64,000 nucleotides of DNA from Candidatus Limnocylindrales bacterium (GTDB lineage: Bacteria; Chloroflexota; Limnocylindria; Limnocylindrales; CSP1-4). Location of the stretch: NCBI GenBank assembly GCA_025450915.1, contig JANWLH010000124.1:356-64355 (forward strand). Reading direction: 5' to 3'. The number at the start of each line of letters is the position of its first letter. The first letter of the stretch is position 1. A program made the position numbers and the translations under genes. The notes under the pieces were generated by a model. The model was not told the DNA's origin and did no database searches. It was given only the letters and a program-made list of their open reading frames with translations. This document shows, piece after piece, positions 49,482-63,943 of this stretch.

Positions 49482-49524
49482 GGGCGGCTCGAGCAGCCAA
49501 GCCAGGTAGCATTCGAACCACTCG

Positions 49525-50481: not shown

Positions 50482-51380
50482 TGAGCGCCGCCGTCGAGCC
50501 GCGCCATGGCGCCCCGGCTGCCCTCGCGGCGATCGCCGCCGAGCATGCACGGAGCCGCCGCGGGCGCCGCCTGCGCGGGCTTGGCAAGCACGCGATCCTG
50601 ATCGTGGTGACCCTGCTGCTCGTCGCCCCGTTCTACTACGTGGTCCTGGCCTCGTTCAAGAACAGCACCGAGATCTTCACCTACCCGCCCAAGCTCCTGC
50701 CGATCCCGCCGTTCCTGGGCAACTACCAGAAGCTGCTCGGCAGCACCGGCTTCCTGCGCTGGATGTTCAACACGCTGCTCGTTGCGGGCACGGTCACCCT
50801 GGTCAAGGTGTTCATGGACTCGATGGCCGGCTATGCCCTGGCCAAGCTCCAGCTCACCGGCAAGCGGCTGATCTTCCTGTCGATGCTGATCCTGCTGATG
50901 GTCCCGCTCGGGGCGCTCATCGTGCCGCTGTGGGCCCTGGTCAACGCGATGGGCCTGACGAACACGTACTTGGCCCTGATCCTGCCGCCCCTCGCCAACC
51001 CGCTGGGCGTCTTCCTGATGCGCCAGTTCATCCTGGGCCTGCCCAAGGACCTCGAGAACGCGGCCCGCCTCGACGGCGTCAGCGAGTTCGGGATCTACCG
51101 GCGGATCATCCTGCCGCTGATCAAGCCCGGCCTGGTGGTCCTGGCCGTGATCATCTTCACCGACCAGTTCATGAGCTTCATCTGGCCGCTGATCGCGACC
51201 TCGAGCGACGACCTCCAGGTGCTCACGGTGGGCGTCGCCGCCCTGCGCTCCCACGGTGGCGCCGATTACGGCCTGTGGTCGGCGGCCGCGGTGATGTCAC
51301 TGGTCCCGATCGGCGTCTTCTTCTTCGTCCTCCAACGCCAATTCCTGGCTCGATCCCTTGCCGGAGCATTGAAACAATGA
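50481..51380 (+). CDS. CUT1 sugar ABC permease (MalG/UgpE-like)
   Basis: ATG 50481 overlaps the preceding stop (TGATG). The EAA loop is ENAARLDGVSEFGIYRRIILP. Confidence 0.88.
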   Translation: MSAAVEPRHGAPAALAAIAAEHARSRRGRRLRGLGKHAILIVVTLLLVAPFYYVVLASFKNSTEIFTYPPKLLPIPPFLGNYQKLLGSTGFLRWMFNTLLVAGTVTLVKVFMDSMAGYALAKLQLTGKRLIFLSMLILLMVPLGALIVPLWALVNAMGLTNTYLALILPPLANPLGVFLMRQFILGLPKDLENAARLDGVSEFGIYRRIILPLIKPGLVVLAVIIFTDQFMSFIWPLIATSSDDLQVLTVGVAALRSHGGADYGLWSAAAVMSLVPIGVFFFVLQRQFLARSLAGALKQ

Positions 51381-52513
51381 CCACGACCGCTTCGACCACC
51401 GACTCGGCGACGGGCACCCAGTACGCGATCGAGATCCTCGGGGTGACCAAGCGCTACGGCAAGATCACCGCGCTCGGCGGCGTCGACCTCGACATCGAGC
51501 CCGGCGAGTTCGTCGTCCTGCTCGGGCCGTCGGGCTGCGGCAAGAGCACCCTGCTCAAGATCATCGCCGGCCTCGAGGACCTCACCGAAGGCGAGGTGTA
51601 CATCGGCGGCAAGCTCGCCAACTACCTCAAGCCCAGTGCCCGGGACGTGGCGATGGTCTTCCAGAACTACGCCCTCTACCCGCACATGACCGTGCGCGCG
51701 AACATCGGCTTCCCGCTCAAGATGGCCGGCCGGCCGAAGGGCGAGATCGAGCAGCAGGTGGCCTTCGCCTCGGGCCTCCTGCAGATCGGCAGCGAGCTCG
51801 ACAAGTACCCGGACGAGCTGTCCGGCGGCCAACGCCAGCGGGTGGCGCTCGGCCGGGCGATCGTCCGCCAGCCGCTCGCCTTCCTGATGGACGAGCCGCT
51901 CTCGAACCTCGACGCGCTCCTGCGCGTGCAGATGCGCTCGGAACTCCTGCGCCTCCACAAGCGCGTCGGCCGGACAACCGTCTACGTGACCCATGACCAG
52001 ATCGAGGCGATGACCATGGCCGACCGGGTCGTCGTGATGCGCAACGGCCTGATCCAGCAGATCGGGCCGCCCGACGAGGTCTACCGACGGCCCGCGAACC
52101 GCTTCGTCGCGTCGTTCGTCGGCAGCCCGCCGATGAACATCCTCGATGGCCGGATCGAGACAGCCGACGGCCGGCGGCGATTCGCGGGACCGATCCCGGT
52201 CGAGATCCCGGGCCTGGCCGGCGCCACGTTGGATGACGGACCGGCCGCGATCGGGATCAGGTCCGAGGAGCTGGTCCTGACCGGCGTGGGGACCGCGGGC
52301 TCGTTTCCGGCGGTCATCGAGCTCGTCGAGCCGGTCGGCGCCGATATCTTCCTGACCGCGACGGTCGAGGGCGGCGCGATCATCACGATCCGGGTCGACG
52401 CCGAGACGAACGTCGCCGAGGGCGAGAACGTCCAGGTCTCGATCGCGCCCGGTGCGATCCGGGTCTTCGATGGAGCCGGCGACCGGGTCCGCCTCACGAG
52501 CGACGCGGCATGA
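51377..52513 (+). CDS. Sugar ABC transporter ATP-binding protein (MalK/UgpC/MsiK-like)
   Basis: ATG 51377 overlaps the preceding stop (ATGA). Walker A GPSGCGKST, VFQNYALYPHMTV, LSGGQRQRVALGRA, LMDEPLSNLD, and a C-terminal regulatory (TOBE-like) domain. Confidence 0.93.
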   Translation: MTTTASTTDSATGTQYAIEILGVTKRYGKITALGGVDLDIEPGEFVVLLGPSGCGKSTLLKIIAGLEDLTEGEVYIGGKLANYLKPSARDVAMVFQNYALYPHMTVRANIGFPLKMAGRPKGEIEQQVAFASGLLQIGSELDKYPDELSGGQRQRVALGRAIVRQPLAFLMDEPLSNLDALLRVQMRSELLRLHKRVGRTTVYVTHDQIEAMTMADRVVVMRNGLIQQIGPPDEVYRRPANRFVASFVGSPPMNILDGRIETADGRRRFAGPIPVEIPGLAGATLDDGPAAIGIRSEELVLTGVGTAGSFPAVIELVEPVGADIFLTATVEGGAIITIRVDAETNVAEGENVQVSIAPGAIRVFDGAGDRVRLTSDAA

Positions 52514-53790
52514 CCGGCCAGGACGCCGCGCTGCCACCCGTGCCGGCGCCGGCCGCCTACCCGCTCCGGGTCTCGCCAGACCGCCGCCGCCTCCTGGACG
52601 CGAACGGGCGGCCATTCCTGATGCAGGGCGACGCGGCCTGGTCGCTGATCGCCAATACGACGCTCGAGGGCACGACCCGCTACCTCGACGAGCGCCGGGC
52701 GCTGGGCTTCAACACGATCATGGTCAGCATCATCGAGTACCTCTTCTCGGCCGATCCGCCACGGGACCTCGCCGGCAACGAGCCGTTCCTGACCCCGGCT
52801 GACTTCACGACCCCCAACCCTGCCTACATGGATCACGCCGAGCGGGTCCTCGAGCTGATCGCCGAGCGCGATTTCCTCGTCCTGCTCGCGCCGGCCTACC
52901 TCGGCTACCCCAATCCCCACTACCCGGGCTTCGGCAATCGCTCCGAGGGTTGGTACGACGAGGTCGTGGCCAACGGCATCGAGGGCAATCGGAGCTGGGG
53001 CGAGTACCTGGGGCGGCGCTTCGACCACTTCGACAACATCATGTGGATGATGGGCGGCGACCGGAACCCGGGGCTCGCCGCCGAGCCGTTGAACGCCCTT
53101 GCTCACGCCCTGCGCAGCACCGGGATCACGACTCCGTTCACCGCCCATGTCCATCCCGAGGACTCGCCGCTCGAGACGTTTCCCGGCGCCGACTGGCTCG
53201 ACGTCAACCCGACGTACACGTACGGGATCGTCCATCGCAAGCTGATCGACGACTGGAACCGGGAGCCGGTCACGCCGTTCTACCTGATCGAGTCGACCTA
53301 CGAAGGTGAGCACGACGCCTCGGAGCTCCAGATCCGCCGCCAGGCGTGGTGGTCGGTCCTGTGCGGGGCGAACGGGCACCTGATCGGGAACAAGCCGATG
53401 TGGCTCTTCGGCGACGGCTGGCAGGACCAGCTGCGCAGCCCGGCCTCGATCGCCATGGCCCGCTGGGGCGACTTCTTCCGGGCCCTGCCGTGGACGGACC
53501 TTGAGCCCGACGAGGCCCATGCCTTCGCCACTGCCGGCCTGGGCGAGGCCCGCGGCCTCGATCGGGTGACGGCCGCCGTGACGAAGGATGGCAAGCTGGC
53601 CGTCGCCTATCTGCCGGTCCGCCGCCCGTTGACGATCGATCCGGCTCCGCTCGGCGGCGGCCGGCTGGCGGTCGAGTGGTTCGAGCCCGCGACCGGCCAG
53701 CGGGTCACGGGCGAGCCGGTCAGCGGCCCGGGCACGGTCATCCTGGCACCGCCCTTTGCCGAGGACTCCGTCCTGACCGTGCGGTCCTGA
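52510..53790 (+). CDS. DUF4038 / glycoside hydrolase family 140-like TIM-barrel protein (apiosidase-like), apparently cytoplasmic
   Basis: ATG 52510 overlaps the preceding stop (ATGA). Blocks NGRPFLMQGDAAWSL, GFNTIMV, IMWMMGGD and YLIESTYEGEH, plus a C-terminal beta-sandwich-like tail. There is no N-terminal hydrophobic signal. Family call is by recollection. Confidence 0.75.
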   Translation: MTGQDAALPPVPAPAAYPLRVSPDRRRLLDANGRPFLMQGDAAWSLIANTTLEGTTRYLDERRALGFNTIMVSIIEYLFSADPPRDLAGNEPFLTPADFTTPNPAYMDHAERVLELIAERDFLVLLAPAYLGYPNPHYPGFGNRSEGWYDEVVANGIEGNRSWGEYLGRRFDHFDNIMWMMGGDRNPGLAAEPLNALAHALRSTGITTPFTAHVHPEDSPLETFPGADWLDVNPTYTYGIVHRKLIDDWNREPVTPFYLIESTYEGEHDASELQIRRQAWWSVLCGANGHLIGNKPMWLFGDGWQDQLRSPASIAMARWGDFFRALPWTDLEPDEAHAFATAGLGEARGLDRVTAAVTKDGKLAVAYLPVRRPLTIDPAPLGGGRLAVEWFEPATGQRVTGEPVSGPGTVILAPPFAEDSVLTVRS

Positions 53791-54331: not shown

Positions 54332-55063
54332 TTACGTCGGGCTGCCGCCGCGAACGAGCTCGAGCATTCGGCGGCCGTTGGCCTCGGCCGCGTTGCCGTC
54401 GAAGACGGCGCTGCCGGTGACGATCACATCGAGGCCGAGGCCGGCGAGATTCGAAACATTGGCCATCGTCACCCCGCCGTCGACGCCGACCGCGATTCGC
54501 CGGCCGGAGCGGTCAATCAGCTCGCGGACCCGTTCGATCCGGCCGAGCGTCCCAGGGATGAATGCCTGGCCGCTCCAGCCCGGGTCGATCGCCAGCACGA
54601 GGACGTATTCGATCTCGTCGAGGAACGGCTCGATTTCCTCGACCGGCTGGCTCGGGCTGAGGCCGATCCCGCGGACGAGCGGGCGGTCGGAGCCGCCGCG
54701 GGCGTGCAGGTCCTTCAGGGCCGTGAAGACGCGATGCGGATGGCCGGCCCGCTCGATGTGGACGGTGACGATGTCGGCACCCGCGGCCAGGATCGGCTCG
54801 ATCTTCGCCAGCGGGTCATCGACCATCAGGTGGACGTCTCGGAGGAGCGCGGGCCCGATCGCCTTGACGATCGGCGCGCCGACCGTGAGCTGCGGGCAGT
54901 AGACCCCGTCCATGACGTCGACATGGACGAGCTCGGCGCCGATCCGCCCGAGCAGTGCGACCTCCTCGCCGAGCCTCGCCAGGTCAGCCGTCAGGATCCC
55001 GATCGAGGGTCGCGGACCGCCCTCGAGCAGCCAGTCCACTCCCCCGCTGGGGCGTTCGGTCAC
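54332..55063 (-). CDS. Ribulose-phosphate 3-epimerase-family protein
   Basis: 243-aa ORF. Blocks [22 protein letters not shown] and GVDGGV are typical of Rpe/AlsE-type epimerases. The start overlaps the upstream gene's stop. Confidence 0.85.
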
Positions 55064-55953
55064 GCCGGGCTGGCCGTCGCCGCCGCCGCCAGGGTCTCGA
55101 ACAGATCGAGGGCCAGCTTCGGGGTCAGCCCGTCGTGGACGACCCCGTTGATCGCCGCGAGCATCGCCGCCGGGGCGTCGGTCTGGAAGATGTTCCGGCC
55201 CATGTCGACGCCGGCCGCGCCCTGGTCGATCCCCTCGTAGGCCATCGTCAGCGCCTCGAGCTCGGGCAGCTTCTTGCCACCGGCCATCACGATTGGCACC
55301 GGGCAGCCCGCGGTGACCTTCTCGAAGCCCTCCTCGCAGAAGTAGGTCTTGACGACCTGCGCGCCGAGCTCGGCGCAGATCCGGGTGGCCAGGCCCAGAT
55401 AGCGCGAATCGCGGGTCAGCTCGCGGCCCACGGCCGTCACGCCGAGGACGGGCATCCCGACCTTCAGGCCGGCATCGACGAGCTGGGTCATGTTGTGGAC
55501 CGTGCGGGTCTCGTTCGGACCACCGACGAAGACCTGCACGCCGACGCCCGCCGCATTGAGCCGGACGGCATCGTCGATGCTCATCGCGATCTCCTCGTCG
55601 CTCAGCTCGCGCAGGATCGACGGCCCGCCGGAGGCACGCAGGACGACCGGCGCGGACATGCTCGCCGGGATGCTCGATCGGAGGATTCCCCGGGTGCAGA
55701 ACAGTGCGTCGACCGATCCGACCAGCGGGGCGATGTCGACGTCGACCCGCTCGAGGCCACTGGTCGGACCCTGGAAGTACCCATGGTCGATCGCCAGCAT
55801 CACCGTCCGGCCGGTCGCCGGCCGGAAGATCCGGGCCAGCCGGTTCTGCATCCCCCAGTCGTAGGCCCCCGAGCCCTTCAGGAAGAACGGCTCATTACGG
55901 GCCGGCTGGGAGAGATGGAAGTCCTTGCGGTCGAGGGAATCAGCTTCGGGCAT
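55060..55953 (-). CDS. lsrF: LsrF-like class I aldolase-fold enzyme (3-hydroxy-5-phosphonooxypentane-2,4-dione thiolase family / DhnA-FbaB type)
   Basis: 297-aa ORF. Blocks [76 protein letters not shown] and VDMGRNIFQ match E. coli LsrF as I recall it. Confidence 0.8.
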
Positions 55954-55962
55954 CGTGGATCC

Positions 55963-57522
55963 TCACAGGGCGCCGGCCGGCCACCACATCGGGCGGGCAA
56001 GGCCGGCTTCGGATAGCTCCAGCACGCGCTGGTAGATGGACGACCAGCGCTCGAAGAGGCCGGCGTAGGTGGCGACATTGGCGGCATCCGGCTCGATCGG
56101 ATCCTCGAGGCGGACGATCCGCTCGAGCGCCTCGGGCAAATCCCGGTAGAGACCTGCGCCGAGGCCGGCGAAGATCGCCGCCCCGAGCGCCGTCGATTCG
56201 GTGACCGAGGCGACCCGGACGCGCAACCCGGTCACGTCCGCGACGATCTGCGGCCAGAGCCGGCCGCGCGATGCCCCGCCGGTGAAGATCACCTCGTCGT
56301 AGGTCGTCCCGGTCAGCTCCTCGATGATCTTGAGGTGGCCGCGGGTGGCATAGGCCGCCTGCTCCTCGATCGCCCGGATGCAGGCCGCCCGGCCCGTTGC
56401 CGCGGGATCGTCGACATCGAACTGGATGAACGACGGGCTGGCCTGGACCCAGCGCTTCGCGTTCATGACGTTCGAGAAGATCGCCACGAGGCCGTTGGCA
56501 CCGGCCGGCGTCCCGGCGGCCAGCTCCTCCATGACGGTGTATGGATCGACGCCCCGGCGGAGCGCCTCGGCCCGTTCCGGATCGCAGAACGCGTCCCGGA
56601 ACCAGCGCATGGCGATCCCGCAATAGAAACCGATCCCCTCGGTCATCCATTGCCCCGGCACCGCGTGGCAGAGCGTCCGCAGGCGGGCATCGGGATCGAT
56701 CAGGGGACGGTCGGTCACGATGGTCAGCTGCCAGAAGCTGCCGCCGAGGAGCGCGAGCCGGCCCGGGCCGCCGACGCCGATGCCGACGAGCCCGAGCTGC
56801 GTATCGGCGCCGCCCACGACCACCGGCGTCCCGGTGGCGAGGCCGGTCTCGTCGGCCGCGGCGGCGGTCAGCCCGCCGACGACCGAGCCCGGCTCGAGGA
56901 CCTCCGGCACGATCGAGGCGGGCAGGCCCACCAGGTCGAGGACGTCGGTCGACCAGGTCCGGCTGGCGAGGTCGAAGAGGTTCGAGCTCGAGCCGGCCGA
57001 CGGGTCGGTAACGAACCGGCCGGTGAGCCGGTACAGAACCCAGTCCGAGAGCATCCCCATGTGGGCGATCGCCTTGAAGGTCTCCGGTTCGTGATTGCGG
57101 ATCCACCAGAAGCGGGCCGGTGAGGTGATCGAGACCCAGTCGCCGGCGACGCCGTAGATCTTCTCGGCGATGCCGGCCCGGACCAGCTCGTCGGCCTCGC
57201 TCGACGCCCGCGAATCGACGTTCGGGCAGGCCCAGATCTCGCGACCATCGGCGTCGTACAGGACCATCCCCTCGCGCATGCTGGTCGCCGAGACGGCCTT
57301 GATGTCCGACGGCGCAAGCCCGCTGGCCTGGAGCGCCTCGCGGACACAGGCCGCGATGAGCGGCCAGTTCCGACTCGTGTCGAACGACTGCGACCCGGGC
57401 ACGCCGGGCACCGGCGGGTGCGACCATTCGCGCTGGCTCGTGGCGATCGGCCGGCCGTCGAGGTCGAAGACGAGCGCCCGGCAACTGCCGGTGCCGATGT
57501 CGATCGCCAGGGTGTGGCTCAT
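55963..57522 (-). CDS. lsrK: FGGY-family carbohydrate kinase, LsrK-like (autoinducer-2 kinase family)
   Basis: 519-aa ORF. Blocks AIDIGTGSCRALVFDLDG, VPGVPGSQSFD, SATSMREGMVLYDADGREIWACPNVDSRA, VVVGGADTQLG and IAMRWFRDAFC match E. coli LsrK as I recall it. Confidence 0.82.
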   Translation of the reverse strand: MSHTLAIDIGTGSCRALVFDLDGRPIATSQREWSHPPVPGVPGSQSFDTSRNWPLIAACVREALQASGLAPSDIKAVSATSMREGMVLYDADGREIWACPNVDSRASSEADELVRAGIAEKIYGVAGDWVSITSPARFWWIRNHEPETFKAIAHMGMLSDWVLYRLTGRFVTDPSAGSSSNLFDLASRTWSTDVLDLVGLPASIVPEVLEPGSVVGGLTAAAADETGLATGTPVVVGGADTQLGLVGIGVGGPGRLALLGGSFWQLTIVTDRPLIDPDARLRTLCHAVPGQWMTEGIGFYCGIAMRWFRDAFCDPERAEALRRGVDPYTVMEELAAGTPAGANGLVAIFSNVMNAKRWVQASPSFIQFDVDDPAATGRAACIRAIEEQAAYATRGHLKIIEELTGTTYDEVIFTGGASRGRLWPQIVADVTGLRVRVASVTESTALGAAIFAGLGAGLYRDLPEALERIVRLEDPIEPDAANVATYAGLFERWSSIYQRVLELSEAGLARPMWWPAGAL

Positions 57523-58577
57523 CGAGACGGCCCGCCGAGCGAGGCGAGGGCCGCGCGGTTGGCGACATTGACCAGCGGCTGGCCCTCGAGGAAGCGCCTG
57601 ACCTCGGCGGCAGCCAGGCGGCCGCCCGTCTCGAGCGTATCGACAGTCGCGCCGCCGATATGGGGCAGGACCACGACGTTGGGCAGGCCCACGAGCGGGT
57701 GGGCCGCCCCCGCGACCCGGCCGGTTGCCACGTCGACTGCGGCCCCGGAGAGGTGCCCGGCGACGAGGGCGTCGTGCAGTGCCGCTTCGTCGACGAGCTC
57801 CGCCCGGGCCGTGTTGACGAGCGTTGCGCCGGCCTTCATCTGGCCAAACCTCCGAGCGTCGAAGAGGCCCCGGTTATCGTTCCCGAGCCGGGCGTGGATC
57901 GAGACATGATCCGCCTCGCGAAGCAAGGCGTCGAGGCCGGCCGGCTCGGCGCCACCCTCGCGGACGAGGTCGTCGGCCATGTACGGGTCATGGGCCAGGA
58001 TGCGCATCTCGAACGCGGCGGCCCGCGCCGCGACCCGCCGGCCCACCTGTCCGAACCCGATCAGCCCGAGGGTATGGCCGGCCAGGTCGTGGCCCAGCCA
58101 GCGGGCTCCCTCGTAGTTGTCGAGGGCGAACTCGCCGCCGCCGTCGATCCAGCGAATCGCATCGACCGCCCGGCGGGCGAGCAGCACGAGGCAGGCAATC
58201 GTCAGCTCGGCGACTGCGTTGGCGTTCTTGCCCGGCGTCGTCACGACCGGGATCCCCCGCTCGGCGGCAGCCTGGAGGTCGATGTTGACCGGCCCGCCGC
58301 GGGCGACGGCCACGAGCCGGATCGGGGCGGAGTCGAGAACCGCGTCGGTGACCGGCGCGCCCTGGACGACGAGGATCTCCTGCCCGTCCAGCCGGGCGAT
58401 CACCTGTTCCGGCGATCCGAGGACCTCGGAGATCCGCCGCTCCGACGGCGTTTCCGGCCGCCAGCCGGGCTCGTCCTCGAGGTCGTCGAATTCGACCGAC
58501 GCACCGTCCAGGCGGGCGAACGCGGTGCGGAAGCGCTCGCTCGGGCAGTAGCTGTCACCCAGGACGAGGATCCGCAT
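57519..58577 (-). CDS. D-isomer-specific 2-hydroxyacid dehydrogenase-family protein (PGDH/PdxB-like), NAD-binding
   Basis: 352-aa ORF. Blocks GLIGFGQVGRRVA, HVSIHARL, LVNTARAELVD and VLPHIGGAT. The start overlaps the upstream gene's stop. Confidence 0.9.
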   Translation of the reverse strand: MRILVLGDSYCPSERFRTAFARLDGASVEFDDLEDEPGWRPETPSERRISEVLGSPEQVIARLDGQEILVVQGAPVTDAVLDSAPIRLVAVARGGPVNIDLQAAAERGIPVVTTPGKNANAVAELTIACLVLLARRAVDAIRWIDGGGEFALDNYEGARWLGHDLAGHTLGLIGFGQVGRRVAARAAAFEMRILAHDPYMADDLVREGGAEPAGLDALLREADHVSIHARLGNDNRGLFDARRFGQMKAGATLVNTARAELVDEAALHDALVAGHLSGAAVDVATGRVAGAAHPLVGLPNVVVLPHIGGATVDTLETGGRLAAAEVRRFLEGQPLVNVANRAALASLGGPSR

Positions 58578-59290
58578 CAGGCCGCCGGCCCCTGGCCATA
58601 GGTGGCGTTCGGCCCGTGCTTGCGGGCGTGGTGGCGCTCGAGGAGCTCGCCGGCAATGGGGCCGGGATTGCCGGCCAGGGCCAGGGTGTCGATCGCGATC
58701 CCGGCCACCATCTCGAGGGCAATCGCGTTCGTGACGGCCGCCTCGGGGCTCGGACCCCAGGCGAAGACGCCGTGGTCGCTGACCAGGATGCCGGGCACGT
58801 CCATTGGGTTGATCGGCCCCTCGTGGAAGGTCTCGACGATCACCCGGCCCGTGGCCGCCTCGAAGTCGCCGCCGATCTCCCCGGCGGTCATCGAGCGAGT
58901 CACCGGGATCGCCCCGTGGAAATGGTCGGCGTGGGTCGTCCCGAGGCAGGGGATCGAGCGATGCGCCTGGGCCCAGGCCGTCGCCGCGCGGGAGTGGGTG
59001 TGGATGATGCCCTCCGTGGTGGGAAACGCCCGGGCCAGGACGAGATGCGTGGGCGTGTCCGACGACGGCCGGGTCCGCCCGGCGACGACCTCGCCCGTCT
59101 CGAGCGCCACGACAACGATGTCGTCGAGCGTGAGCGCCGTGGCCGGAATGCCGCTCGGCTTGATGGCCATCAGGCCGGCGGCCCGGTCGATCGCGCTGGC
59201 GTTGCCGAATGTCAGGGCAACGAGGCCGGCCCGCTGCAACGCGCGATTGGCCTCGAGAGCCGACTCTCGCAGGCGGTCCAGGTCAGACAT
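58577..59290 (-). CDS. Class II aldolase/adducin-family protein, L-ribulose-5-phosphate 4-epimerase-like (AraD/SgbE/UlaF type)
   Basis: 237-aa ORF. Blocks TFGNASAIDR, IKPSG, SSDTPTHLVL, IIHTHSRAATAWAQA, GTTHADHFHG and RKHGPNATYGQ are nearly collinear with E. coli AraD as I recall it. Confidence 0.88.
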   Translation of the reverse strand: MSDLDRLRESALEANRALQRAGLVALTFGNASAIDRAAGLMAIKPSGIPATALTLDDIVVVALETGEVVAGRTRPSSDTPTHLVLARAFPTTEGIIHTHSRAATAWAQAHRSIPCLGTTHADHFHGAIPVTRSMTAGEIGGDFEAATGRVIVETFHEGPINPMDVPGILVSDHGVFAWGPSPEAAVTNAIALEMVAGIAIDTLALAGNPGPIAGELLERHHARKHGPNATYGQGPAA

Positions 59291-59428: not shown

Positions 59429-60412
59429 ATGAGGGGAACACCGAGCGTGCGAGCGAGACTTGATCGAGCCCCGGTCGACGCACAGTCACTCGACCTGTTG
59501 ATCGAGCTCGCGACGCGCCACTACCTCCAGGGCAGCAGCCAGATCGAGATCGCCCGCGATCTCGGGCTCGATCCGTCGACGATCTCGCGCTACCTCAAGC
59601 GCGCCCGCGACGAGGGCATCGTCAAGATCGACATCGTCACCCCGATCCGGCCGAACGTCGAGCTCGGGCTGCGCCTGGCCAGCGAGTTCGGCCTCGACCG
59701 GGCGGTCGTCACCGAGCTGCCACCCGATGCCGGGGCGGACCCGATGGAGATCGTCGCCCGGGCCGCCGCCGAGTTCATCTCCGACCAGCTCCGGCGCGGC
59801 AGCCGGGTGGGGATCGGCTGGGGCCAGACGATCGCGGCCGTCGCCCGCCACCTCGACCCGGGAGTCGTCGGCGAGCTCCAGGTCGCCCAGCTGGCGGGTG
59901 GGCTGGCCGACGCCGCGCCAGGAACGCAGGGTCACGAGCTGGCCAGGCGGCTGACCGAGATCTACCCCGACAGCCGGGTGACCTACCTGCACGCGCCGTC
60001 GATCGTCGACTCAGCGGCGCTGTGCGATGCCCTGCTGGCCGATCGGTCGGTCCAGGCAGCCCTGGCCACCGCGGCCCGGAGCGAGATCGCCCTCGTCGGG
60101 ATCGGCGACATGACCCCCAACGCGACGCTCCTCGCGGCCAGCCATATCCTCGGCGATGACCTCGGCGAGCTCCTGGCCCAGGGTGCGGTCGGGAGCATGA
60201 ACTCGCGCTTCTTCGACGTAGACGGCCGGCCGGTCGAGCACCTCGACCGGCGGACGATCGCCAACGAGTGGGCGGACCTCGCGGCGATCCCCCAGGTCAT
60301 CGCGATCGCCGCGGGCTCGGCGAAGGCCATCGCGATCCGGGCCGCGATCCGCGGCGGGACGATCAACGTGCTGATCACCGACGAGGGAACCGCCGAGGCC
60401 ATCCTGGCCTGA
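59429..60412 (+). CDS. SorC/DeoR(Bsu)/LsrR-family sugar-binding transcriptional regulator
   Basis: Lies in ORF 58616..60412. The start is ATG 59429 or GTG 59447. The HTH is QGSSQIEIARDLGLDPSTISRYLKRARDEGIVKI, followed by a sugar-phosphate-binding domain (IGWGQT..., ALVGIG..., VIAIAAGSAKA...LITDEGTA). Confidence 0.85.
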   Translation: MRGTPSVRARLDRAPVDAQSLDLLIELATRHYLQGSSQIEIARDLGLDPSTISRYLKRARDEGIVKIDIVTPIRPNVELGLRLASEFGLDRAVVTELPPDAGADPMEIVARAAAEFISDQLRRGSRVGIGWGQTIAAVARHLDPGVVGELQVAQLAGGLADAAPGTQGHELARRLTEIYPDSRVTYLHAPSIVDSAALCDALLADRSVQAALATAARSEIALVGIGDMTPNATLLAASHILGDDLGELLAQGAVGSMNSRFFDVDGRPVEHLDRRTIANEWADLAAIPQVIAIAAGSAKAIAIRAAIRGGTINVLITDEGTAEAILA

Positions 60413-60436
60413 GAGCCGCCCCGGGCAGGCCCGTCG

Positions 60437-60904
60437 CTACGAGCGGGGCAGCGTGCCCCCGACCGATCGAGCGTCGAGTGCCTTGATCTTGTCGACCTTG
60501 CGCGTCGAGCCCCCGCCCTGGAATTCGGCGACGAGCCAGTGGTCGACGATGATCCGGGCAACCTCCGGCGCGACCACCCGCGAGCCGAGGCACAGCACCT
60601 GGGCGTCGTTCGACATCCGGGCCCGCTCGGCGGAATAGGGGTCCGCGACCGAGGCCGCCCGGACGCCGGGGATCTTGTTGGCGGTGATCGCCATCCCGAT
60701 CCCCGTGCCACACACGAGAATCGCCCGGTTGAAGATCCCGGCGGCGACCGCTTCGGCGACCTCGATCGCCACGTCGGGGTAATCGACCGGCGTGTCGTCG
60801 TTGACGCCGTAGTCGACGACCTCGTGGCCGGCCGCCTCGAGATGCGCCTTGACGGCGTCTTTGAGGGGCAATCCGAGGTGGTCGGCGCCGACGGCGATCT
60901 TCAT
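60437..60904 (-). CDS. RpiB/LacA/LacB-family sugar-phosphate isomerase
   Basis: ATG 60904 overlaps the stop of the TIM-like gene (ATGA). Blocks MKIAVGADHLG, ILVCGTGIGMAITANK and NDAQVLCLG. Confidence 0.9.
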   Translation of the reverse strand: MKIAVGADHLGLPLKDAVKAHLEAAGHEVVDYGVNDDTPVDYPDVAIEVAEAVAAGIFNRAILVCGTGIGMAITANKIPGVRAASVADPYSAERARMSNDAQVLCLGSRVVAPEVARIIVDHWLVAEFQGGGSTRKVDKIKALDARSVGGTLPRS

Positions 60905-61665
60905 CGAATCCCTGCCTGTTGGGGTGCCGGCGTGGCCCGGGCGATGGCAGCGAACCCGAGAGGATCGAGCCCGTGGCGGCCGATGAACAACCCGTCCACG
61001 CCGGGCTCGGCCAGCAGGCGCGGAGCACTGGCCGCGTCCACGCTGCCACCGTAGATGATTCGTGATCGGTTGGCTCCAGTGCCGCCGAGCCGTTCGGCGA
61101 TCGCCCGGTGAATGTGGCCGACACGATCGGATGGCGCCGGCCGGCGGCCCTCGCCGATCGCCCAGATCGGCTCGTAGGCGATCACGACCCGGCCCAGGTC
61201 GGCGGTGACGACCCCGTCCAGGCACCGCCCGATGTCGGCCATGACCGCCGGGATCGCCACCTCGACCGGCGCCTCGTCCGGCTCGCCCGTGCACAGGACG
61301 ACGTCCATGCCGACGCCGAGGATCGCCCGGACCTTGGCCGCGATCATCGCCGGGTCCTCTCCGTGGTCCCGGCGCCGTTCCGCATGGCCGACCTCGACGT
61401 AGCGACAACCGAGGTCGGCCAGCATGGCCGCCGAGACATCGCCGGTGTGCGCCCCGTTCGCGAAGGGGCTGACGTCCTGGGCGCCCCAGGCGATCCCCGA
61501 CCCGGCCAGCCGCTCGCGGGCCAACGCCAGCGCGGTGAACGGCGGCAGCACGAAGAAGTCCACCCAGGGCAGCTCCCCCGCCAGGGGCCGGAATGTCGAG
61601 AGCCAGTGATCGGCCTCGGCGAGCGTGAGGTTCATCTTCCAGCTCGTGCCGATCAATGCCGCCAC
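60901..61665 (-). CDS. Triosephosphate isomerase-family protein (paralogue-type, TpiA2/EryH-like context)
   Basis: GTG 61665 lies 1 nt after the dhaL stop. Blocks GTSWKMN, GAHTGD, VEVGHAERR, IAYEPIWAIG and IYGGSV. Confidence 0.88.
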   Translation of the reverse strand: MAALIGTSWKMNLTLAEADHWLSTFRPLAGELPWVDFFVLPPFTALALARERLAGSGIAWGAQDVSPFANGAHTGDVSAAMLADLGCRYVEVGHAERRRDHGEDPAMIAAKVRAILGVGMDVVLCTGEPDEAPVEVAIPAVMADIGRCLDGVVTADLGRVVIAYEPIWAIGEGRRPAPSDRVGHIHRAIAERLGGTGANRSRIIYGGSVDAASAPRLLAEPGVDGLFIGRHGLDPLGFAAIARATPAPQQAGIR

Positions 61666-61666
61666 G

Positions 61667-62311
61667 TCAGCCCTCCGCCGGGCCGAGGGCGCTCGCGACC
61701 AGGGCGTGGACGATGATCGCCAGCGATGCCGCGCCGGGGTCGATCGTCCCCTTGCTCTGCTCGGCGTGCCGCGCGGAGCGCCCGATCCGGGCTTCGAGCC
61801 CGGCGGTCGCGTCGGCTCCGGCCTGGGCGGCCGCATCGGCGGCGGCCAGCCCATCCCGCAACGAGCCACCTGACCGGGCCGTTGCCTCGAGCGCGGCAGC
61901 TGCCGGCAGCAACGCATCGAGGACCGTCTTGTCGCCTGGACCGGCGCCCAGCCCGCTCGTTGCGACCGCAGCCCGCTCGATCGCCGACGCGAGGAGCTCC
62001 AGCTGTCCGGCGCCGCCAACCGCGTCGGGACCCTCGCGCAGGCGGCCGGCGATCGCCAGCAGCCCGCGGCCGTAGATCGCGCCGATCGCGCCACCCGCGC
62101 CGGCCATCCCGATCGCCGCGGCCCGGACCAGGACCTCCGGGTCGTCTGACGCGACCCCTTCGAGCTGGGCGCGCACGCGCCGCGCACCGATCGTCATTGT
62201 CACACCGTGGTCCCCGTCGCCGCTCGCAGCATCGAGCAGGCAGAGCGCTTCGCGCGCCTCCTCGATCGCGTCGGCGGCGTCCAGGATCGCCGACCGCAGG
62301 CTCGCACTCAT
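61667..62311 (-). CDS. dhaL: Dihydroxyacetone-kinase family, nucleotide-binding subunit (DhaL)
   Basis: ATG 62311 overlaps the dhaK stop (ATGA). Blocks LDAASGDGDHG, GAIGAIYG, PGDKTVLDAL and GRSA. Confidence 0.88.
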   Translation of the reverse strand: MSASLRSAILDAADAIEEAREALCLLDAASGDGDHGVTMTIGARRVRAQLEGVASDDPEVLVRAAAIGMAGAGGAIGAIYGRGLLAIAGRLREGPDAVGGAGQLELLASAIERAAVATSGLGAGPGDKTVLDALLPAAAALEATARSGGSLRDGLAAADAAAQAGADATAGLEARIGRSARHAEQSKGTIDPGAASLAIIVHALVASALGPAEG

Positions 62312-63439: not shown

Positions 63440-63943
63440 ATGGTGTTGCCCGCCGGCCCGACCCACATCTCCCAGGTCGCGATGGTCGTCCGCGACCTCG
63501 ACGCCTCGATGAAGATGTTCCACGACACGCTTGGGTGGGGGCCCTGGAACGTCTACGAGCACGTCCCCCCGAAGTTGCACCACACCCACCTGCGCGGCGT
63601 GGAGGTGGCCTTCTCGATGCTCGGCGCGGAATGCGAGGTCCAGCCCGGCCTGGTCTTCGAGCTCGTCCAGCCGCTCGACGGCCCGAGCATCTACAAGGAG
63701 TTCCTCGAGGAGCACGGCGAGGGCGTCCAGCACATCGCCTGCATGATGCATTCGCAGGCCGACTCGGACGAGTTCAAGAAGGAATGGCAGGCGCGCGGCG
63801 CGAAGGTCCTGATGGGCGGCCGGATCGGCGAGACGATCGAGTTCTACTACCTCGACACGGAGCCGATGCTCAAGTTCATCCTCGAGTCGGGCAGCGGCCA
63901 CGCCATCGACCTGACCCCCAGTCGCGTCTACCCGCCCGCCTGA
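63440..63943 (+). CDS. Single-module VOC/glyoxalase-fold protein, same subfamily as the tandem-VOC protein
   Basis: ATG 63440 is preceded by GAGG. Blocks ISQVAMVVRDLD, LGWGPWNVY, VFELVQPL, GEGVQHIACMM, IGETIEFYYLDTEP and FILESGSGHAIDL match each half of the 46755-47801 product. Confidence 0.85.
   Translation: MVLPAGPTHISQVAMVVRDLDASMKMFHDTLGWGPWNVYEHVPPKLHHTHLRGVEVAFSMLGAECEVQPGLVFELVQPLDGPSIYKEFLEEHGEGVQHIACMMHSQADSDEFKKEWQARGAKVLMGGRIGETIEFYYLDTEPMLKFILESGSGHAIDLTPSRVYPPA

What the first reader, a model, noticed from the sequence alone, without database searches (positions are those of the whole stretch)
54332..59290. LsrK/LsrF-like pair in a five-gene operon that lacks the Lsr transporter and LsrG but adds a PGDH-like dehydrogenase and two pentulose-phosphate epimerases
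The kinase and the aldolase-fold protein share long blocks with E. coli LsrK and LsrF (from memory), including the VVKTYF lysine context of LsrF. In enterobacteria these enzymes process phospho-AI-2 (P-DPD) through LsrG to P-HPD, and LsrF then cleaves P-HPD to DHAP and acetyl-CoA. Here I find no LsrACDB-type (CUT2) transporter and no small LsrG-like ORF. Instead the operon reads AraD-like 4-epimerase, D-2-hydroxyacid dehydrogenase-like protein, LsrK-like kinase, LsrF-like enzyme, Rpe-like 3-epimerase, all overlapping or nearly abutting, with a divergent SorC/LsrR-family regulator. A chemically coherent hypothesis follows. A 1-deoxy-pentulose, or a related C5 ketose, is phosphorylated at C5. 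The epimerases bring it to the correct stereoisomer. A PGDH/PdxB-like enzyme then oxidises the hydroxyl adjacent to the CH2-O-phosphate, as PGDH does on 3-phosphoglycerate, which yields the LsrF substrate directly and replaces LsrG. This would be a catabolic route rather than quorum-sensing signal removal.
Basis: partly seen in the sequence, partly recalled or inferred. Interest (0 to 1): 0.7.

Follow-up and report, generated by a model that had tools for sequence, protein, structure and literature searches.

The report
Lsr-like catabolic cluster lacking LsrG
A soil Chloroflexota genome carries close relatives of the two enzymes that enteric bacteria use to destroy the quorum signal AI-2, set in a conserved, undescribed gene cluster with different partner enzymes and no AI-2 transporter, which suggests these enzymes serve a wider sugar-breakdown route.

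Summary
Window 54332-59290 (minus strand) holds five abutting genes: AraD-like, PGDH-like 2-hydroxyacid dehydrogenase (2HADH), LsrK-like, LsrF-like and Rpe-like. A divergent SorC regulator follows. LsrK-like and LsrF-like pass NCBI's equivalog cut-offs, and all ten described LsrF active-site residues are kept. The window holds no LsrG and no LsrACDB.

The five genes are a rearranged piece of a larger cluster conserved in about 20-35 Limnocylindria and Actinomycetota soil MAGs. That cluster also holds a 167-aa VOC (glyoxalase-fold) protein, a D-threonine-aldolase-like PLP enzyme, SDRs, an APC permease and often DhaKL-TIM-RpiB. It is the most conserved member and sits next to LsrK-like genes in four other phyla. 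It never co-occurs with LsrG: 0 of 80 enteric loci have VOC, and 0 of 60 loci here have LsrG. It is therefore at least as good a candidate LsrG substitute as the dehydrogenase.

The Rpe-like gene has a precedent in enteric lsrE. AraD is accessory. The substrate is unknown. My best guess is a DPD-like 1-deoxy C5 ketose converted to P-HPD and cleaved to DHAP plus acetyl-CoA. This is a new variant of a known kind, and I found no paper describing it.

The parts
58577..59290 (-). AraD-like class II aldolase-fold protein (L-ribulose-5-phosphate 4-epimerase family), 237 aa. It is the first gene of the operon in this genome and is accessory across relatives.
   Evidence: NCBIfam AraD subfamily NF006047, 298 bits (cut-off 257); Pfam Aldolase_II. 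Present at >=45% identity in only 5 of 21 fully flanked related loci.
57519..58577 (-). D-2-hydroxyacid dehydrogenase, PGDH-like, 352 aa. It is translationally coupled to the kinase gene.
   Evidence: Pfam 2-Hacid_dh and 2-Hacid_dh_C. The best NCBIfam match is PGDH at 197 bits, below its cut-off of 454. The best solved relatives are phosphoglycerate dehydrogenases. Present in 20 of 21 related loci. Cluster-linked 2HADHs form one NJ clade.
55963..57522 (-). LsrK-like FGGY kinase, 519 aa.
   Evidence: NCBIfam autoinducer-2 kinase, 604 bits (cut-off 528). E=1.5e-140 to the LsrK structure 5YA0. 43% identity to E. coli LsrK. It belongs to a separate VOC-associated clade. It keeps 105 of the 138 residues invariant in canonical LsrKs and carries 5 fixed differences.
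55060..55953 (-). LsrF-like class I aldolase-fold enzyme (P-HPD thiolase family), 297 aa.
   Evidence: NCBIfam NF006081, 465 bits (cut-off 297). E=2e-118 to E. coli LsrF structures. 60-62% identity to E. coli LsrF. All 10 described active-site and phosphate-site residues are invariant.
54332..55063 (-). Rpe-like ketose-phosphate 3-epimerase paralogue, 243 aa (or 235 aa). It occupies the position that lsrE holds in some enteric lsr operons.
   Evidence: Pfam Ribul_P_3_epim. rpe equivalog 180 bits, below the cut-off of 213. The metal and catalytic motifs HxDxMD, DVHLM, VDGG and GSA are kept. It follows LsrF in 20 of 21 related loci. Enteric lsrE is 33-36% identical.
59498..60412 (+). SorC/DeoR-type sugar-phosphate-binding regulator, divergent from the operon.
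   Evidence: Pfam Sugar-bind plus HTH. It scores higher against B. subtilis DeoR-type (199 bits) than against LsrR (111 bits), and both are below cut-off. 29% identity to E. coli LsrR. Present in 20 of 21 related loci.
63440..63943 (+). 167-aa VOC (Glyoxalase_4, methylmalonyl-CoA-epimerase-like fold) protein. It is the candidate functional analogue of LsrG. It is the first gene of a VOC / DTA-like / SDR / APC-permease operon that runs off the window.
   Evidence: Pfam PF13669; no NCBIfam family. 83-95% identical across loci. It lies directly upstream of LsrK-like genes in Microvirga, L147, L256 and L258. It is absent from 80 enteric lsr loci that do have LsrG. AF2 model pLDDT 93; nearest folds are MCE-like. 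Q12, E74, H98 and E149 are invariant.
60437..63306 (-). DhaK (62308-63306), DhaL (61667-62311), TIM-like (60901-61665) and RpiB-like (60437-60904) operon. It is an associated module found in about half of the relatives.
   Evidence: Pfam Dak1, Dak2, TIM and LacAB_rpiB. NCBIfam. Present in 12 of 21 related loci. Dak1/Dak2 also lie beside VOC-LsrK pairs in L256 and L258.
47982..53790 (+). CUT1 ABC transporter (SBP, two permeases, MalK-type ATPase) followed by a GH140 'apiosidase'-family protein. It is convergent on the operon and is probably a separate, lineage-specific neighbour.
   Evidence: Pfam labels. GH140 is kept in only 4 of 21 related loci and the SBP in 3 of 21.

Best explanation
The five genes are part of a conserved, variant Lsr-type catabolic cluster. 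It funnels a small DPD-like C5 compound into 3-hydroxy-2,4-pentanedione 5-phosphate (P-HPD) and cleaves it to DHAP plus acetyl-CoA. The candidate substrates are 4,5-dihydroxy-2,3-pentanedione itself, a 1-deoxy-pentulose, or both.

Steps:
1. The LsrK-like kinase phosphorylates the terminal CH2OH. The family is shown; the substrate is inferred.
2. P-HPD is made in two ways, both inferred. The 167-aa VOC-fold metalloenzyme acts as a non-homologous stand-in for LsrG and carries out the enediol shift of the 2,3-dione to the 2,4-dione. The PGDH-like dehydrogenase, helped by the Rpe-like C3 epimerase and, where present, the AraD-like C4 epimerase, brings in reduced congeners by oxidising a secondary alcohol of the phosphorylated ketose.
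3. The LsrF-like enzyme forms a Schiff base through the conserved lysine and transfers the acetyl group to CoA. The family and the active site are shown; the reaction is inferred.
4. The SorC regulator probably senses the phosphorylated intermediate.

Uptake is not by an LsrACDB-type system. The physiological source of the substrate is unknown. The purpose is carbon salvage or detoxification rather than LsrB-type signal import.
For: - LsrK-like and LsrF-like exceed the curated equivalog cut-offs.
- The window LsrF is closer to E. coli LsrF (60%) than the LsrF of a complete Bacillus lsr operon is (42%). All ten ligand and catalytic residues are invariant in 20 sequences (PMC2728841).
- Synteny: 2HADH, LsrK, LsrF, Rpe, SorC and VOC are each present in 20 of 21 fully flanked loci.
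- VOC versus LsrG are complementary. Among 80 enteric LsrK loci, LsrG is in 76 and VOC in 0. Among 60 loci of the window's clade, LsrG is in 0 and VOC in 36.
- A cupin fills the same slot in Bacillus, Lacticaseibacillus and Deinococcus, so this step is prone to non-orthologous replacement.
- VOC homologues at 62-68% identity lie directly upstream of LsrK-like kinases in a cultured Microvirga, a gammaproteobacterial MAG, a Spirochaetia MAG and one further MAG. The Microvirga and Spirochaetia kinases were scored and also pass the LsrK cut-off.
- The downstream cleavage enzyme varies: LsrF, a 416-aa class II aldolase as in the S. meliloti lsr locus, or a PDH/acetoin-dehydrogenase-like E1/E2. Each fits a methyl-ketone sugar phosphate that yields a C2 unit plus a triose.
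- VOC167 models confidently as a methylmalonyl-CoA-epimerase-like fold with invariant Q/E/H/E at the metal positions. That fold works through metal-bound enolates.
- Cluster 2HADHs are one clade and abut the kinase gene.
- The Rpe-like protein keeps the epimerase catalytic motifs.
Against: - No enzyme here has been assayed. The VOC role rests on gene neighbourhood and fold alone.
- The LsrK-like proteins form a clade separate from canonical LsrKs (41-49% identity; tree). They carry five fixed substitutions, so the phosphorylated substrate may not be DPD.
- In relatives that do have a CUT2 transporter beside VOC-LsrK, the binding protein has I-V-A-H-V-A at the six LsrB AI-2-contact positions (residues from PMC13644630). 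This argues against AI-2 in its LsrB-bound form.
- The co-operonic D-threonine-aldolase-like PLP enzyme, SDRs, 'cyclase'-family hydrolase and APC permease point to an amine- or amino-acid-type substrate that this model does not explain.
- If VOC supplies P-HPD, the dehydrogenase is not needed, so its near-universal presence is unexplained.
- In this genome VOC is not in the same operon as LsrK.
Confidence: 0.5

Rival explanations
1. A 1-deoxy-pentulose is phosphorylated at C5, epimerised by the Rpe-like and AraD-like enzymes, and oxidised at C4 by the PGDH-like dehydrogenase directly to P-HPD for LsrF. The dehydrogenase alone replaces LsrG, and the VOC protein belongs to another pathway.
For: - 2HADH is translationally coupled to the kinase gene.
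- It is present in 20 of 21 loci.
- Cluster 2HADHs form one clade and precede FGGY kinases even in Binatia and Proteobacteria.
- Its best family match is PGDH.
- Rpe and AraD both act on pentulose 5-phosphates. This fits a C5 phosphate and a C2 carbonyl, and their catalytic motifs are kept.
- In this genome VOC sits in a different operon, with the DTA-like enzyme.
Against: - VOC-LsrK adjacency holds across five phyla, including loci with no 2HADH (L138, L139, L152, L256, L258).
- VOC is the most conserved protein of the cluster.
- AraD is absent from 16 of 21 loci.
- The PGDH match is far below cut-off (197 against 454 bits), so the regiochemistry is only a guess.
Confidence: 0.2
2. An oxidative, thiolytic variant of the 5-deoxyribose / 5'-deoxyadenosine 'DHAP shunt'. 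5-deoxyribose is isomerised (by VOC?) to 5-deoxyribulose and phosphorylated at C1 by the LsrK-like kinase. The dehydrogenase oxidises the CH3-CHOH group, as a D-lactate dehydrogenase would, which gives P-HPD (identical to 4-dehydro-5-deoxyribulose 1-phosphate). LsrF then yields DHAP plus acetyl-CoA instead of DHAP plus acetaldehyde.
For: - P-HPD is one oxidation away from 5-deoxyribulose 1-phosphate (structural reasoning).
- The 2HADH family includes D-lactate dehydrogenases.
- In relatives, LsrF is replaced by RhaD-like class II aldolases, often fused to an SDR. That is the layout of deoxy-sugar aldolase/dehydrogenase pairs.
- LsrF / Rpe / aldolase-SDR triads occur with no kinase or transporter among housekeeping genes. 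This fits salvage of an endogenous by-product.
- Ribose-type CUT2 transporters flank VOC-LsrK in Proteobacteria and Spirochaetia.
Against: - No MtnP, MtnA, MtnN or DrdK/DrdI-type genes were seen in the loci examined.
- Rpe and AraD fit 5-phosphates, not 1-phosphates.
- LsrK phosphorylates a CH2OH next to a CHOH, not next to a carbonyl.
- No paper links Lsr enzymes to the DHAP shunt.
Confidence: 0.12
3. The LsrK/LsrF/2HADH/VOC genes are the lower part of a pathway for an imported amino-sugar acid or beta-hydroxy-D-amino acid. The APC permease imports it. An SDR and a hydrolase prepare it. The D-threonine-aldolase-like PLP enzyme splits or deaminates it. The Lsr-like enzymes then act on a product that is not DPD-like.
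For: - DTA-like, SDR, ('cyclase' hydrolase) and APC permease genes are co-operonic with LsrF-Rpe in Limnocylindria. They are also linked in Actinomycetota, Ktedonobacteria and Gaiellales.
- The closest solved relative of the PLP enzyme is D-threonine aldolase (203 bits).
- A second Actinomycetes cluster type joins DTA-like, APC and SDR genes with an LsrK-like kinase, PdxA, an aminotransferase and an FAH hydrolase.
Against: - VOC-2HADH-LsrK units exist with sugar-type CUT2 transporters and no DTA-like or APC genes.
- The invariant LsrF active site argues for a P-HPD-like substrate.
- I could not write a chemically sensible route from a beta-hydroxy amino acid to a C5 methyl-diketone phosphate.
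Confidence: 0.1
4. An ordinary split lsr regulon. The organism imports AI-2 with an LsrACDB system and isomerises P-DPD with an LsrG encoded elsewhere. The neighbours seen here are incidental.
For: LsrK and LsrF pass the equivalog cut-offs. The rest of the genome could not be searched.
Against: - No LsrG or LsrB-type gene lies within about 10 kb in any of 140 related loci.
- The alternative partners are strongly conserved.
- LsrK-like forms a separate clade.
- The closest transporter-bearing relatives have non-LsrB binding proteins.
Confidence: 0.05
5. The cluster catabolises D-apiose released by the adjacent GH140 'apiosidase' after ABC import. The Lsr-like enzymes handle apulose-type intermediates, and DhaKL-TIM-RpiB handle erythrulose.
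For: A GH140 (PF13204) gene and a CUT1 ABC transporter abut the operon. DhaKL-TIM-RpiB resemble erythrulose modules.
Against: - GH140 and the SBP are kept in only 3-4 of 21 related loci.
- The known apiose routes use AplK and the AptAB transketolase or RLPs, not Lsr enzymes (PMC13001218).
- The quaternary C3 of apulose 4-phosphate does not fit LsrF chemistry (inference).
Confidence: 0.03

Closest known systems
Enterobacterial Lsr system (E. coli lsrRK / lsrACDBFG; Salmonella and Citrobacter lsrACDBFGE)
   Same: Both have an LsrK-family kinase and an LsrF-family enzyme with an identical active site, a SorC-family regulator transcribed divergently, and, in some enterics, an Rpe-like last gene (lsrE).
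   Different: This cluster has no LsrACDB transporter and no ABM-fold LsrG. It adds a VOC protein, a PGDH-like dehydrogenase, AraD, a DTA-like PLP enzyme, an APC permease and DhaKL-TIM-RpiB. The kinase lies in a separate clade. The regulator is no closer to LsrR than to DeoR-type SorC proteins.
Sinorhizobium meliloti pSymB lsr (ait) locus
   Same: It shows that Lsr-type clusters tolerate replacement of the cleavage enzyme. It has LsrR-LsrK-LsrG and LsrACDB, with a 416-aa class II aldolase where LsrF would be. Homologues of that aldolase flank LsrF-like or VOC-LsrK genes in many soil loci.
   Different: S. meliloti keeps LsrG and a true LsrB (78% identical to E. coli LsrB, with the full AI-2 signature). 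The window has neither, and it has LsrF rather than the aldolase.
Firmicute and Deinococcus lsr loci (Bacillus sp. N5-665, Lacticaseibacillus paracasei plasmid, Deinococcus psychrotolerans plasmid)
   Same: A small, non-homologous protein sits immediately after lsrK where LsrG is expected. This is the same kind of substitution proposed here for VOC.
   Different: There the substitute is a cupin, not a VOC protein. Bacillus and Lacticaseibacillus keep an LsrB-type ABC transporter. None of the three has a 2HADH.
Variant VOC-2HADH-LsrK clusters in Proteobacteria (Microvirga sp. GCM10011540; gammaproteobacterial MAG L147)
   Same: These are the closest functional relatives outside Chloroflexota and Actinomycetota. 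They share the VOC (64-66% identity), a 2HADH of the same clade, an LsrK-like kinase (the Microvirga one passes the LsrK cut-off), and a SorC regulator.
   Different: They carry a CUT2 ABC transporter with a non-LsrB binding protein, and a class II aldolase instead of LsrF and Rpe. They have no DTA-like or APC module. They are uncharacterised as well.
DHAP shunt for 5-deoxyribose / 5'-deoxyadenosine (MtnK/P-MtnA-Ald2; DrdK-DrdI-DrdA)
   Same: It also ends in a C5 deoxy-ketose phosphate split into DHAP plus a C2 unit. Its intermediate, 5-deoxyribulose 1-phosphate, is one oxidation away from the LsrF substrate (own knowledge; PMC12632272 and PMC10986504 listed).
   Different: Different enzyme families do the phosphorylation and isomerisation, and a class II aldolase releases acetaldehyde. 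None of those genes was seen here.
Erythritol/threitol-type erythrulose modules (Brucella eryH/eryI; Mycobacterium smegmatis LerK/LerI/DerI; from memory)
   Same: The neighbouring DhaK-DhaL-TIM-RpiB operon with a SorC regulator has the same family composition.
   Different: The RpiB-like protein is below the DerI equivalog cut-off (153 against 240 bits). A link to the Lsr-like genes is not known in those systems.

Membership tests
Lsr (LuxS-regulated) AI-2 uptake and processing system | LsrK: an FGGY kinase of the AI-2 kinase equivalog family | tested here: met
   NCBIfam NF008187, 604 bits against a cut-off of 528. E=1.5e-140 to 5YA0. However, it falls in a clade distinct from canonical LsrKs and carries 5 fixed substitutions.
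Lsr (LuxS-regulated) AI-2 uptake and processing system | LsrF: a P-HPD thiolase with the Schiff-base lysine K203 and a phosphate site | tested here: met
   NCBIfam NF006081, 465 bits against a cut-off of 297. D57, H58, K203, Y205, G226, G227, D251, M252, G253 and R254 are all identical. Catalytic activity was not tested.
Lsr (LuxS-regulated) AI-2 uptake and processing system | LsrG: an ABM-fold phospho-DPD isomerase encoded in the locus | tested here: not met
   tblastn with E. coli and S. meliloti LsrG gives no credible hit in the 64-kb window and none in 140 related loci. The rest of the genome could not be searched.
Lsr (LuxS-regulated) AI-2 uptake and processing system | LsrACDB: a CUT2 ABC transporter whose binding protein has the AI-2 contacts K35, D116, D166, Q167, P220 and A222 | tested here: not met
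   There is no LsrB, LsrC or LsrD homologue in the window. The LsrA query hits only generic ABC ATPases. In relatives that do have a CUT2 transporter, the six positions read I V A H V A (residue list from PMC13644630).
Lsr (LuxS-regulated) AI-2 uptake and processing system | LsrR: a SorC-family repressor that responds to phospho-AI-2 | tested here: inconclusive
   The regulator is SorC-family and divergent from the operon, but it is only 29% identical to E. coli LsrR. It scores 111 bits against a cut-off of 486 for LsrR, which is lower than its score for DeoR-type proteins. A residue-level test failed because the published numbering did not map onto E. coli LsrR.
Lsr (LuxS-regulated) AI-2 uptake and processing system | Induction by AI-2 and removal of extracellular AI-2 | not testable with these tools
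   This requires culture or heterologous expression.
L-ribulose-5-phosphate 4-epimerase (AraD) | Score above the curated family cut-off | tested here: met
   NF006047 AraD subfamily, 298 bits against 257. The stricter equivalog TIGR00760 gives 283 bits against 389 and is not met.
D-3-phosphoglycerate dehydrogenase (PGDH/SerA) or PdxB | Score above the curated equivalog cut-off | tested here: not met
   TIGR01327 PGDH, 197 bits against 454. PdxB, 104 bits against 434. It is a member of the D-2-hydroxyacid dehydrogenase superfamily only.
Ribulose-phosphate 3-epimerase (Rpe) | Score above the equivalog cut-off, and catalytic metal and acid-base motifs | tested here: inconclusive
   TIGR01163, 180 bits against 213, so the cut-off is not met. 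The motifs are conserved in the alignment to 5UMF. It is a dedicated paralogue that follows LsrF in 20 of 21 loci.
VOC superfamily, methylmalonyl-CoA epimerase-like | Paired beta-alpha-beta-beta-beta modules with four metal-ligand positions | tested here: met
   Pfam Glyoxalase_4. AF2 pLDDT 93. Foldseek best hits 3GM5 and 6BU2, TM 0.6-0.8. Q12, E74, H98 and E149 are invariant in 30 sequences. Assigning them as metal ligands is by alignment only. It is not an MCE by score: it has no NCBIfam hit.
Known D-apiose catabolic pathways | Apulose kinase AplK plus transketolase AptA/AptB, or apionate/RLP enzymes | tested here: not met
   None of these families appears among the Pfam-labelled genes of the locus. 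The pathway genes are as listed in PMC13001218.

The most novel reading that the evidence does not exclude
P-HPD is a general catabolic hub, not a quorum-sensing curiosity. Under this reading a widespread soil-bacterial pathway converts 1-deoxy or 5-deoxy C5 sugars to P-HPD and harvests it as DHAP plus acetyl-CoA through LsrF. The sugars would include DPD formed without LuxS, 1-deoxy-xylulose, or 5-deoxyribose from radical-SAM turnover. The pathway would occur in Chloroflexota, Actinomycetota, Acidobacteriota, Proteobacteria and Spirochaetia. It would use a previously uncharacterised VOC-fold isomerase (a third, non-homologous solution to the LsrG step, after the ABM and cupin proteins) and a dedicated PGDH-like dehydrogenase. 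The enteric Lsr 'signal-quenching' system would then be a derived specialisation of this older catabolic module. The long-unexplained lsrE epimerase would gain a role.
Probability: 0.3. Interest if true: 0.75.

Novelty: new variant of a known kind. Interest (0 to 1): 0.6.

Why it matters
LsrK and LsrF are normally taken as markers of AI-2 internalisation and quorum quenching, and metagenome annotations label them that way ('putative autoinducer-2 aldolase'). This analysis shows that in many soil lineages these genes sit in a different, conserved context, with no AI-2 receptor or transporter and no LsrG. Reading them as quorum-sensing capacity is therefore likely wrong.

The cluster offers concrete, testable candidates:
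- for a non-homologous LsrG replacement (the VOC protein, alongside a cupin in Firmicutes);
- for the function of the orphan epimerase LsrE;
- for a new NAD-dependent entry into P-HPD.

A cultured carrier of the sister cluster (Microvirga sp. GCM10011540) makes experiments feasible. If the deoxy-pentose reading holds, this would add an energy-conserving route, free of acetaldehyde, for a universal by-product of radical-SAM enzymes or of isoprenoid/vitamin precursors.

Tried and rejected
1. D-apiose pathway. This lead came from the GH140 'Apiosidase' Pfam hit. I rejected it as the main reading because GH140 and its transporter are kept in only 3-4 of 21 loci and no known apiose enzyme is present. 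The primary apiose paper (PMC6435334) is not held.

2. 'LsrF-like genes in Xanthobacteraceae are uninformative singletons'. I revised this after S. meliloti AldII homologues were found 1-2 kb from LsrF in those loci.

3. Scan with the single 2HADH protein. It reached few relatives, mostly generic 2HADHs. It was useful only later, for the tree.

4. The last genome scan, with a canonical LsrK alignment. It returned only Enterobacterales, which served as a control but gave no phylogenetic breadth. Breadth for canonical loci came from the plasmid collection instead.

5. VOC167 against plasmids. Only hits of 38% identity or less, so uninformative.

6. LsrR ligand-site test. The published residue numbers did not map onto E. 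coli LsrR, so I abandoned it.

7. Promoter and terminator consensus scan of 53700-60500. Nothing found, as expected for this phylum.

8. Context of an acidobacterial LsrF / Rpe / aldolase-SDR triad. It lies among housekeeping genes with no Mtn or Drd genes, so it neither confirms nor excludes the 5-deoxyribose idea.

9. LsrK substrate-site residues. The LsrK modelling paper lists no DPD contacts, so I used clade-wise conservation instead.

10. Routes from glucosaminate-type amino-sugar acids to an LsrF substrate. I tried to write them and found none that is chemically sound.

11. Literature searches for this arrangement. They found no description.

Full report
OBSERVATION

The window is about 70% G+C. 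On the minus strand, 54332-59290 holds five intact, co-directional ORFs:
- AraD-like, 58577-59290
- D-2-hydroxyacid dehydrogenase (2HADH), 57519-58577
- LsrK-like FGGY kinase, 55963-57522
- LsrF-like DeoC-fold enzyme, 55060-55953
- Rpe-like, 54332-55063

Junctions are a 1-nt shared base, a 4-nt overlap, a 9-nt gap and a 4-nt overlap. Independent public gene calls on identical contigs give the same genes. A SorC-type regulator (59498-60412) is divergent.

Against NCBI's curated models:
- the kinase scores 604 bits for 'autoinducer-2 kinase' (cut-off 528);
- the aldolase-fold protein scores 465 bits for '3-hydroxy-5-phosphonooxypentane-2,4-dione thiolase' (cut-off 297);
- AraD-like passes the AraD subfamily cut-off (298 against 257);
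- the dehydrogenase is best matched by PGDH but is far below cut-off (197 against 454);
- the Rpe-like protein falls short of the rpe equivalog (180 against 213).

I took authentic E. coli K-12 Lsr proteins from NC_000913. Identities are 43% to LsrK, 62% to LsrF and 29% to LsrR. LsrB, LsrC, LsrD and LsrG find nothing in the window.

ARE LsrK-LIKE AND LsrF-LIKE REALLY OF THOSE FAMILIES?

For LsrF the case is strong.
- The ten residues described as catalytic or phosphate-binding in the E. coli structure are D57, H58, K203, Y205, G226, G227, D251, M252, G253 and R254 (PMC2728841). All ten are invariant in the window protein and in 19 other sequences.
- The window protein is 60% identical to E. 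coli LsrF. The LsrF of a complete Bacillus lsr operon is only 42% identical.

For LsrK the picture is more nuanced.
- Canonical LsrKs (Enterobacterales, Bacillus, Deinococcus, S. meliloti, Lacticaseibacillus) share 44-56% identity with one another and 41-49% with the window clade.
- A neighbour-joining tree separates the two groups.
- The window kinase keeps 105 of 138 positions invariant in ten canonical LsrKs. An unrelated neighbouring FGGY kinase keeps 68.
- The clade has five fixed differences: Q141D, T142W, T192S, N297L and Q306M.
- The family is right, but identical substrate specificity cannot be assumed.

WHAT THE OPERON BELONGS TO

The closest relatives are soil MAGs of Chloroflexota, labelled Candidatus Limnocylindria/Limnocylindrales. 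The window itself matches NCBI assembly GCA_036561665.1.

I profiled 60 LsrK-like loci and 80 LsrF-like loci with tblastn. The usual arrangement is

<RpiB<TIM<DhaL<DhaK<SDR<SorC | VOC>(AraD>)2HADH>LsrK>LsrF>Rpe>DTA-like>SDR>('cyclase' hydrolase>)APC permease>

The same core occurs in Thermoleophilia, Solirubrobacterales, Gaiellales, Acidimicrobiia, other Actinomycetes and Ktedonobacteraceae.

Among 21 loci with full flanks and a kinase at least 55% identical to the window's, the counts are:
- VOC, 2HADH, LsrF, Rpe-like and SorC: 20 each
- DTA-like: 19
- APC permease: 12
- DhaK, TIM and RpiB: 12
- AraD: 5
- GH140: 4
- LsrG and LsrB: 0

In the window's genome the cluster has been rearranged. VOC (63440-63943), the DTA-like enzyme, an SDR and the APC permease form their own operon on the far side of DhaKL-TIM-RpiB and run off the window.

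THE VOC PROTEIN

- This 167-aa Glyoxalase_4 protein has no NCBIfam family.
- It is the most conserved protein in the cluster: 83-95% identity where the kinase is 65-73%.
- Homologues at 62-68% identity lie immediately upstream of LsrK-like kinases in four further contexts:
  - a cultured Microvirga sp.: CUT2 ABC-VOC | SorC-2HADH-LsrK-class II aldolase;
  - a gammaproteobacterial MAG with the same layout;
  - a Spirochaetia MAG: Dak1-Dak2-CUT2 ABC-VOC-VOC-LsrK-PDH/acetoin-dehydrogenase-like E1a/E1b/E2-small class II aldolase;
  - another MAG: VOC-LsrK-AP_endonuc_2-Dak1-Dak2-VOC.
  The Microvirga and Spirochaetia kinases were scored against the LsrK model and also pass its cut-off (552 and 591 bits).
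- In 80 Enterobacterales LsrK loci, LsrG is present in 76 and VOC and 2HADH in none. In the 60 loci of the window's clade the reverse holds.
- In Bacillus, Lacticaseibacillus and Deinococcus a cupin gene occupies the position right after lsrK, and no LsrG is present.
- Three unrelated small proteins thus alternate next to LsrK.
- An AlphaFold model built from 30 homologues is confident (pLDDT 93). It is closest to methylmalonyl-CoA-epimerase-like VOC structures. Q12, E74, H98 and E149 are invariant at the positions that bind the metal in that fold (alignment-based).
- VOC enzymes work through metal-chelated enolates. That is the chemistry needed to move the carbonyl of phospho-DPD (the 2,3-dione) to P-HPD (the 2,4-dione). 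This is an inference; nothing has been assayed.

THE DEHYDROGENASE AND THE EPIMERASES

- The 2HADH is not incidental. It is coupled to the kinase gene.
- Cluster-linked 2HADHs from Chloroflexota, Actinomycetota, Proteobacteria and Binatia group together against other 2HADHs.
- In Binatia a 2HADH of this group precedes a more distant FGGY kinase.
- It is, however, missing from several VOC-LsrK loci (L138, L139, L152, L256, L258).
- In many Acidobacteriota, Planctomycetota and Verrucomicrobiota loci, LsrF and an Rpe-like gene are followed by a class II aldolase fused to an SDR. In 28 of 80 LsrF loci a homologue of the S. meliloti lsr-locus aldolase is adjacent.
- The combination 'class II aldolase-fold protein + dehydrogenase + LsrF + Rpe-like' therefore recurs in two forms.
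It can equally be reached from 5-deoxy-ribulose 1-phosphate, the intermediate of 5'-deoxyadenosine salvage. Rpe and AraD, which act on 5-phosphates, favour the first route. The deoxy-sugar-type aldolase/SDR partners favour the second.
- The Rpe-like gene has a precedent. Salmonella lsrE is an epimerase homologue of unknown role (PMC2728841). I found Rpe-like genes after lsrG in Citrobacter, Mangrovibacter and Kluyvera, 33-36% identical to the window protein.

WHAT DOES NOT FIT

- The D-threonine-aldolase-like PLP enzyme (best solved relative 4V15; below the BhcC cut-off), the SDRs, a 'cyclase'-family hydrolase and an APC-family permease are co-operonic in most relatives. A different Actinomycetes cluster type again joins them to an LsrK-like kinase. 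This hints at an amine- or amino-acid-type substrate that I could not connect chemically to P-HPD.
- The binding proteins of the CUT2 transporters next to VOC-LsrK in Proteobacteria and Spirochaetia are about 21% identical to LsrB. They read I-V-A-H-V-A at the six AI-2-contact positions (residue list in PMC13644630). If those clusters import the same substrate, it is not AI-2 as LsrB binds it.
- The neighbouring CUT1 ABC transporter and GH140 'apiosidase' (47982-53790) are lineage-specific. I treat them as a separate module.

CONCLUSION

- Best explanation (about 0.5): a variant Lsr-type catabolic cluster that converges on P-HPD and yields DHAP plus acetyl-CoA. VOC is the likely LsrG analogue. 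The dehydrogenase and epimerases are an additional or alternative entry for reduced congeners.
- Rivals:
  - an oxidative 5-deoxyribose shunt (0.12);
  - an amino-sugar-acid or D-amino-acid pathway that uses these enzymes differently (0.1);
  - a split ordinary lsr regulon (0.05);
  - apiose catabolism (0.03).
- Full-text searches found no description of this arrangement.
- It is a new variant of a known kind. It is real, conserved and widespread in soil bacteria, and it is experimentally tractable through a cultured Microvirga.

Noticed in passing
window 47982-53790 (+): A CUT1 ABC transporter (SBP 47982-49481, permeases 49525-50481 and 50481-51380, MalK-type ATPase to 52513) is followed by a GH140 'Apiosidase' (PF13204) protein at 52510-53790. 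This suggests intracellular cleavage of an imported apioside-like oligosaccharide. It is kept only in the closest relatives and in L126.
   Followed up: partly
window 44158-47873 (-): This stretch holds an SDR, a GntR/YhfZ_C regulator, a second SDR and a 372-aa double-VOC protein. The VOC372-SDR pair appears to recur near the Lsr-like cluster in other Limnocylindria loci, though the VOC372 count may be inflated by cross-hits with VOC167. Its function is unknown.
   Followed up: partly
window 60437-63306 (-); also L256 and L258: A DhaK-DhaL-TIM-RpiB operon has the family composition of an erythrulose-to-erythrose-4-phosphate module. Dak1/Dak2 genes also sit beside VOC-LsrK pairs in unrelated phyla, so the link to a dihydroxyacetone-type kinase may be functional.
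   Followed up: partly
L171, L172, L174 (Deinococcus, Bacillus and Lacticaseibacillus lsr loci): A cupin-domain gene follows lsrK directly where Proteobacteria have lsrG, and no LsrG homologue is present. This may be an unreported non-orthologous replacement of LsrG in Firmicutes and Deinococcus.
   Followed up: partly
L173 (S. meliloti pSymB) and 28 of the 80 LsrF-like loci L001-L080: The S. meliloti lsr locus has a 416-aa class II aldolase and no LsrF. Its homologues, often fused to an SDR ('bifunctional aldolase/short-chain dehydrogenase'), flank LsrF and Rpe-like genes in Xanthobacteraceae, Acidobacteriota, Planctomycetota and Verrucomicrobiota, with no kinase nearby.
   Followed up: partly
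L258 10001-16143 (Spirochaetia MAG): VOC-VOC-LsrK is followed by a PDH/acetoin-dehydrogenase-like E1alpha/E1beta/E2 set and a small class II aldolase. This is a third way of cleaving the kinase product, and it points to a methyl-ketone substrate.
   Followed up: no
L255 6197-7171, L147 4298-5296, L258 5852-6832: The CUT2 binding proteins next to VOC-LsrK share a conserved signature of their own (I V A H V A at the LsrB AI-2-contact positions) across Alpha-, Gammaproteobacteria and Spirochaetia. They form a distinct receptor group with an unknown ligand.
   Followed up: partly
L163 391-14133 (also L153, L155, L169): An Actinomycetes cluster reads GntR | FAH hydrolase-SDR-DTA-like-APC permease-SDR-MBL hydrolase-class III aminotransferase-PdxA-LsrK-like FGGY kinase-GMC oxidoreductase. 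This is a second, different context that joins the DTA-like/APC module to an LsrK-like kinase.
   Followed up: no
window 36000-44600: An upstream sugar/amide catabolic block holds an SMP-30/gluconolactonase-like protein, an SDR, DUF4432, an amidohydrolase, a second CUT1 ABC transporter and an M20 peptidase.
   Followed up: no
L158, L159, L164-L166, L168: Several long-read MAG loci show the cluster genes broken into fragments by apparent frameshifts. This is probably assembly error rather than pseudogenisation, and it lowers the apparent identity and coverage in the synteny tables.
   Followed up: no
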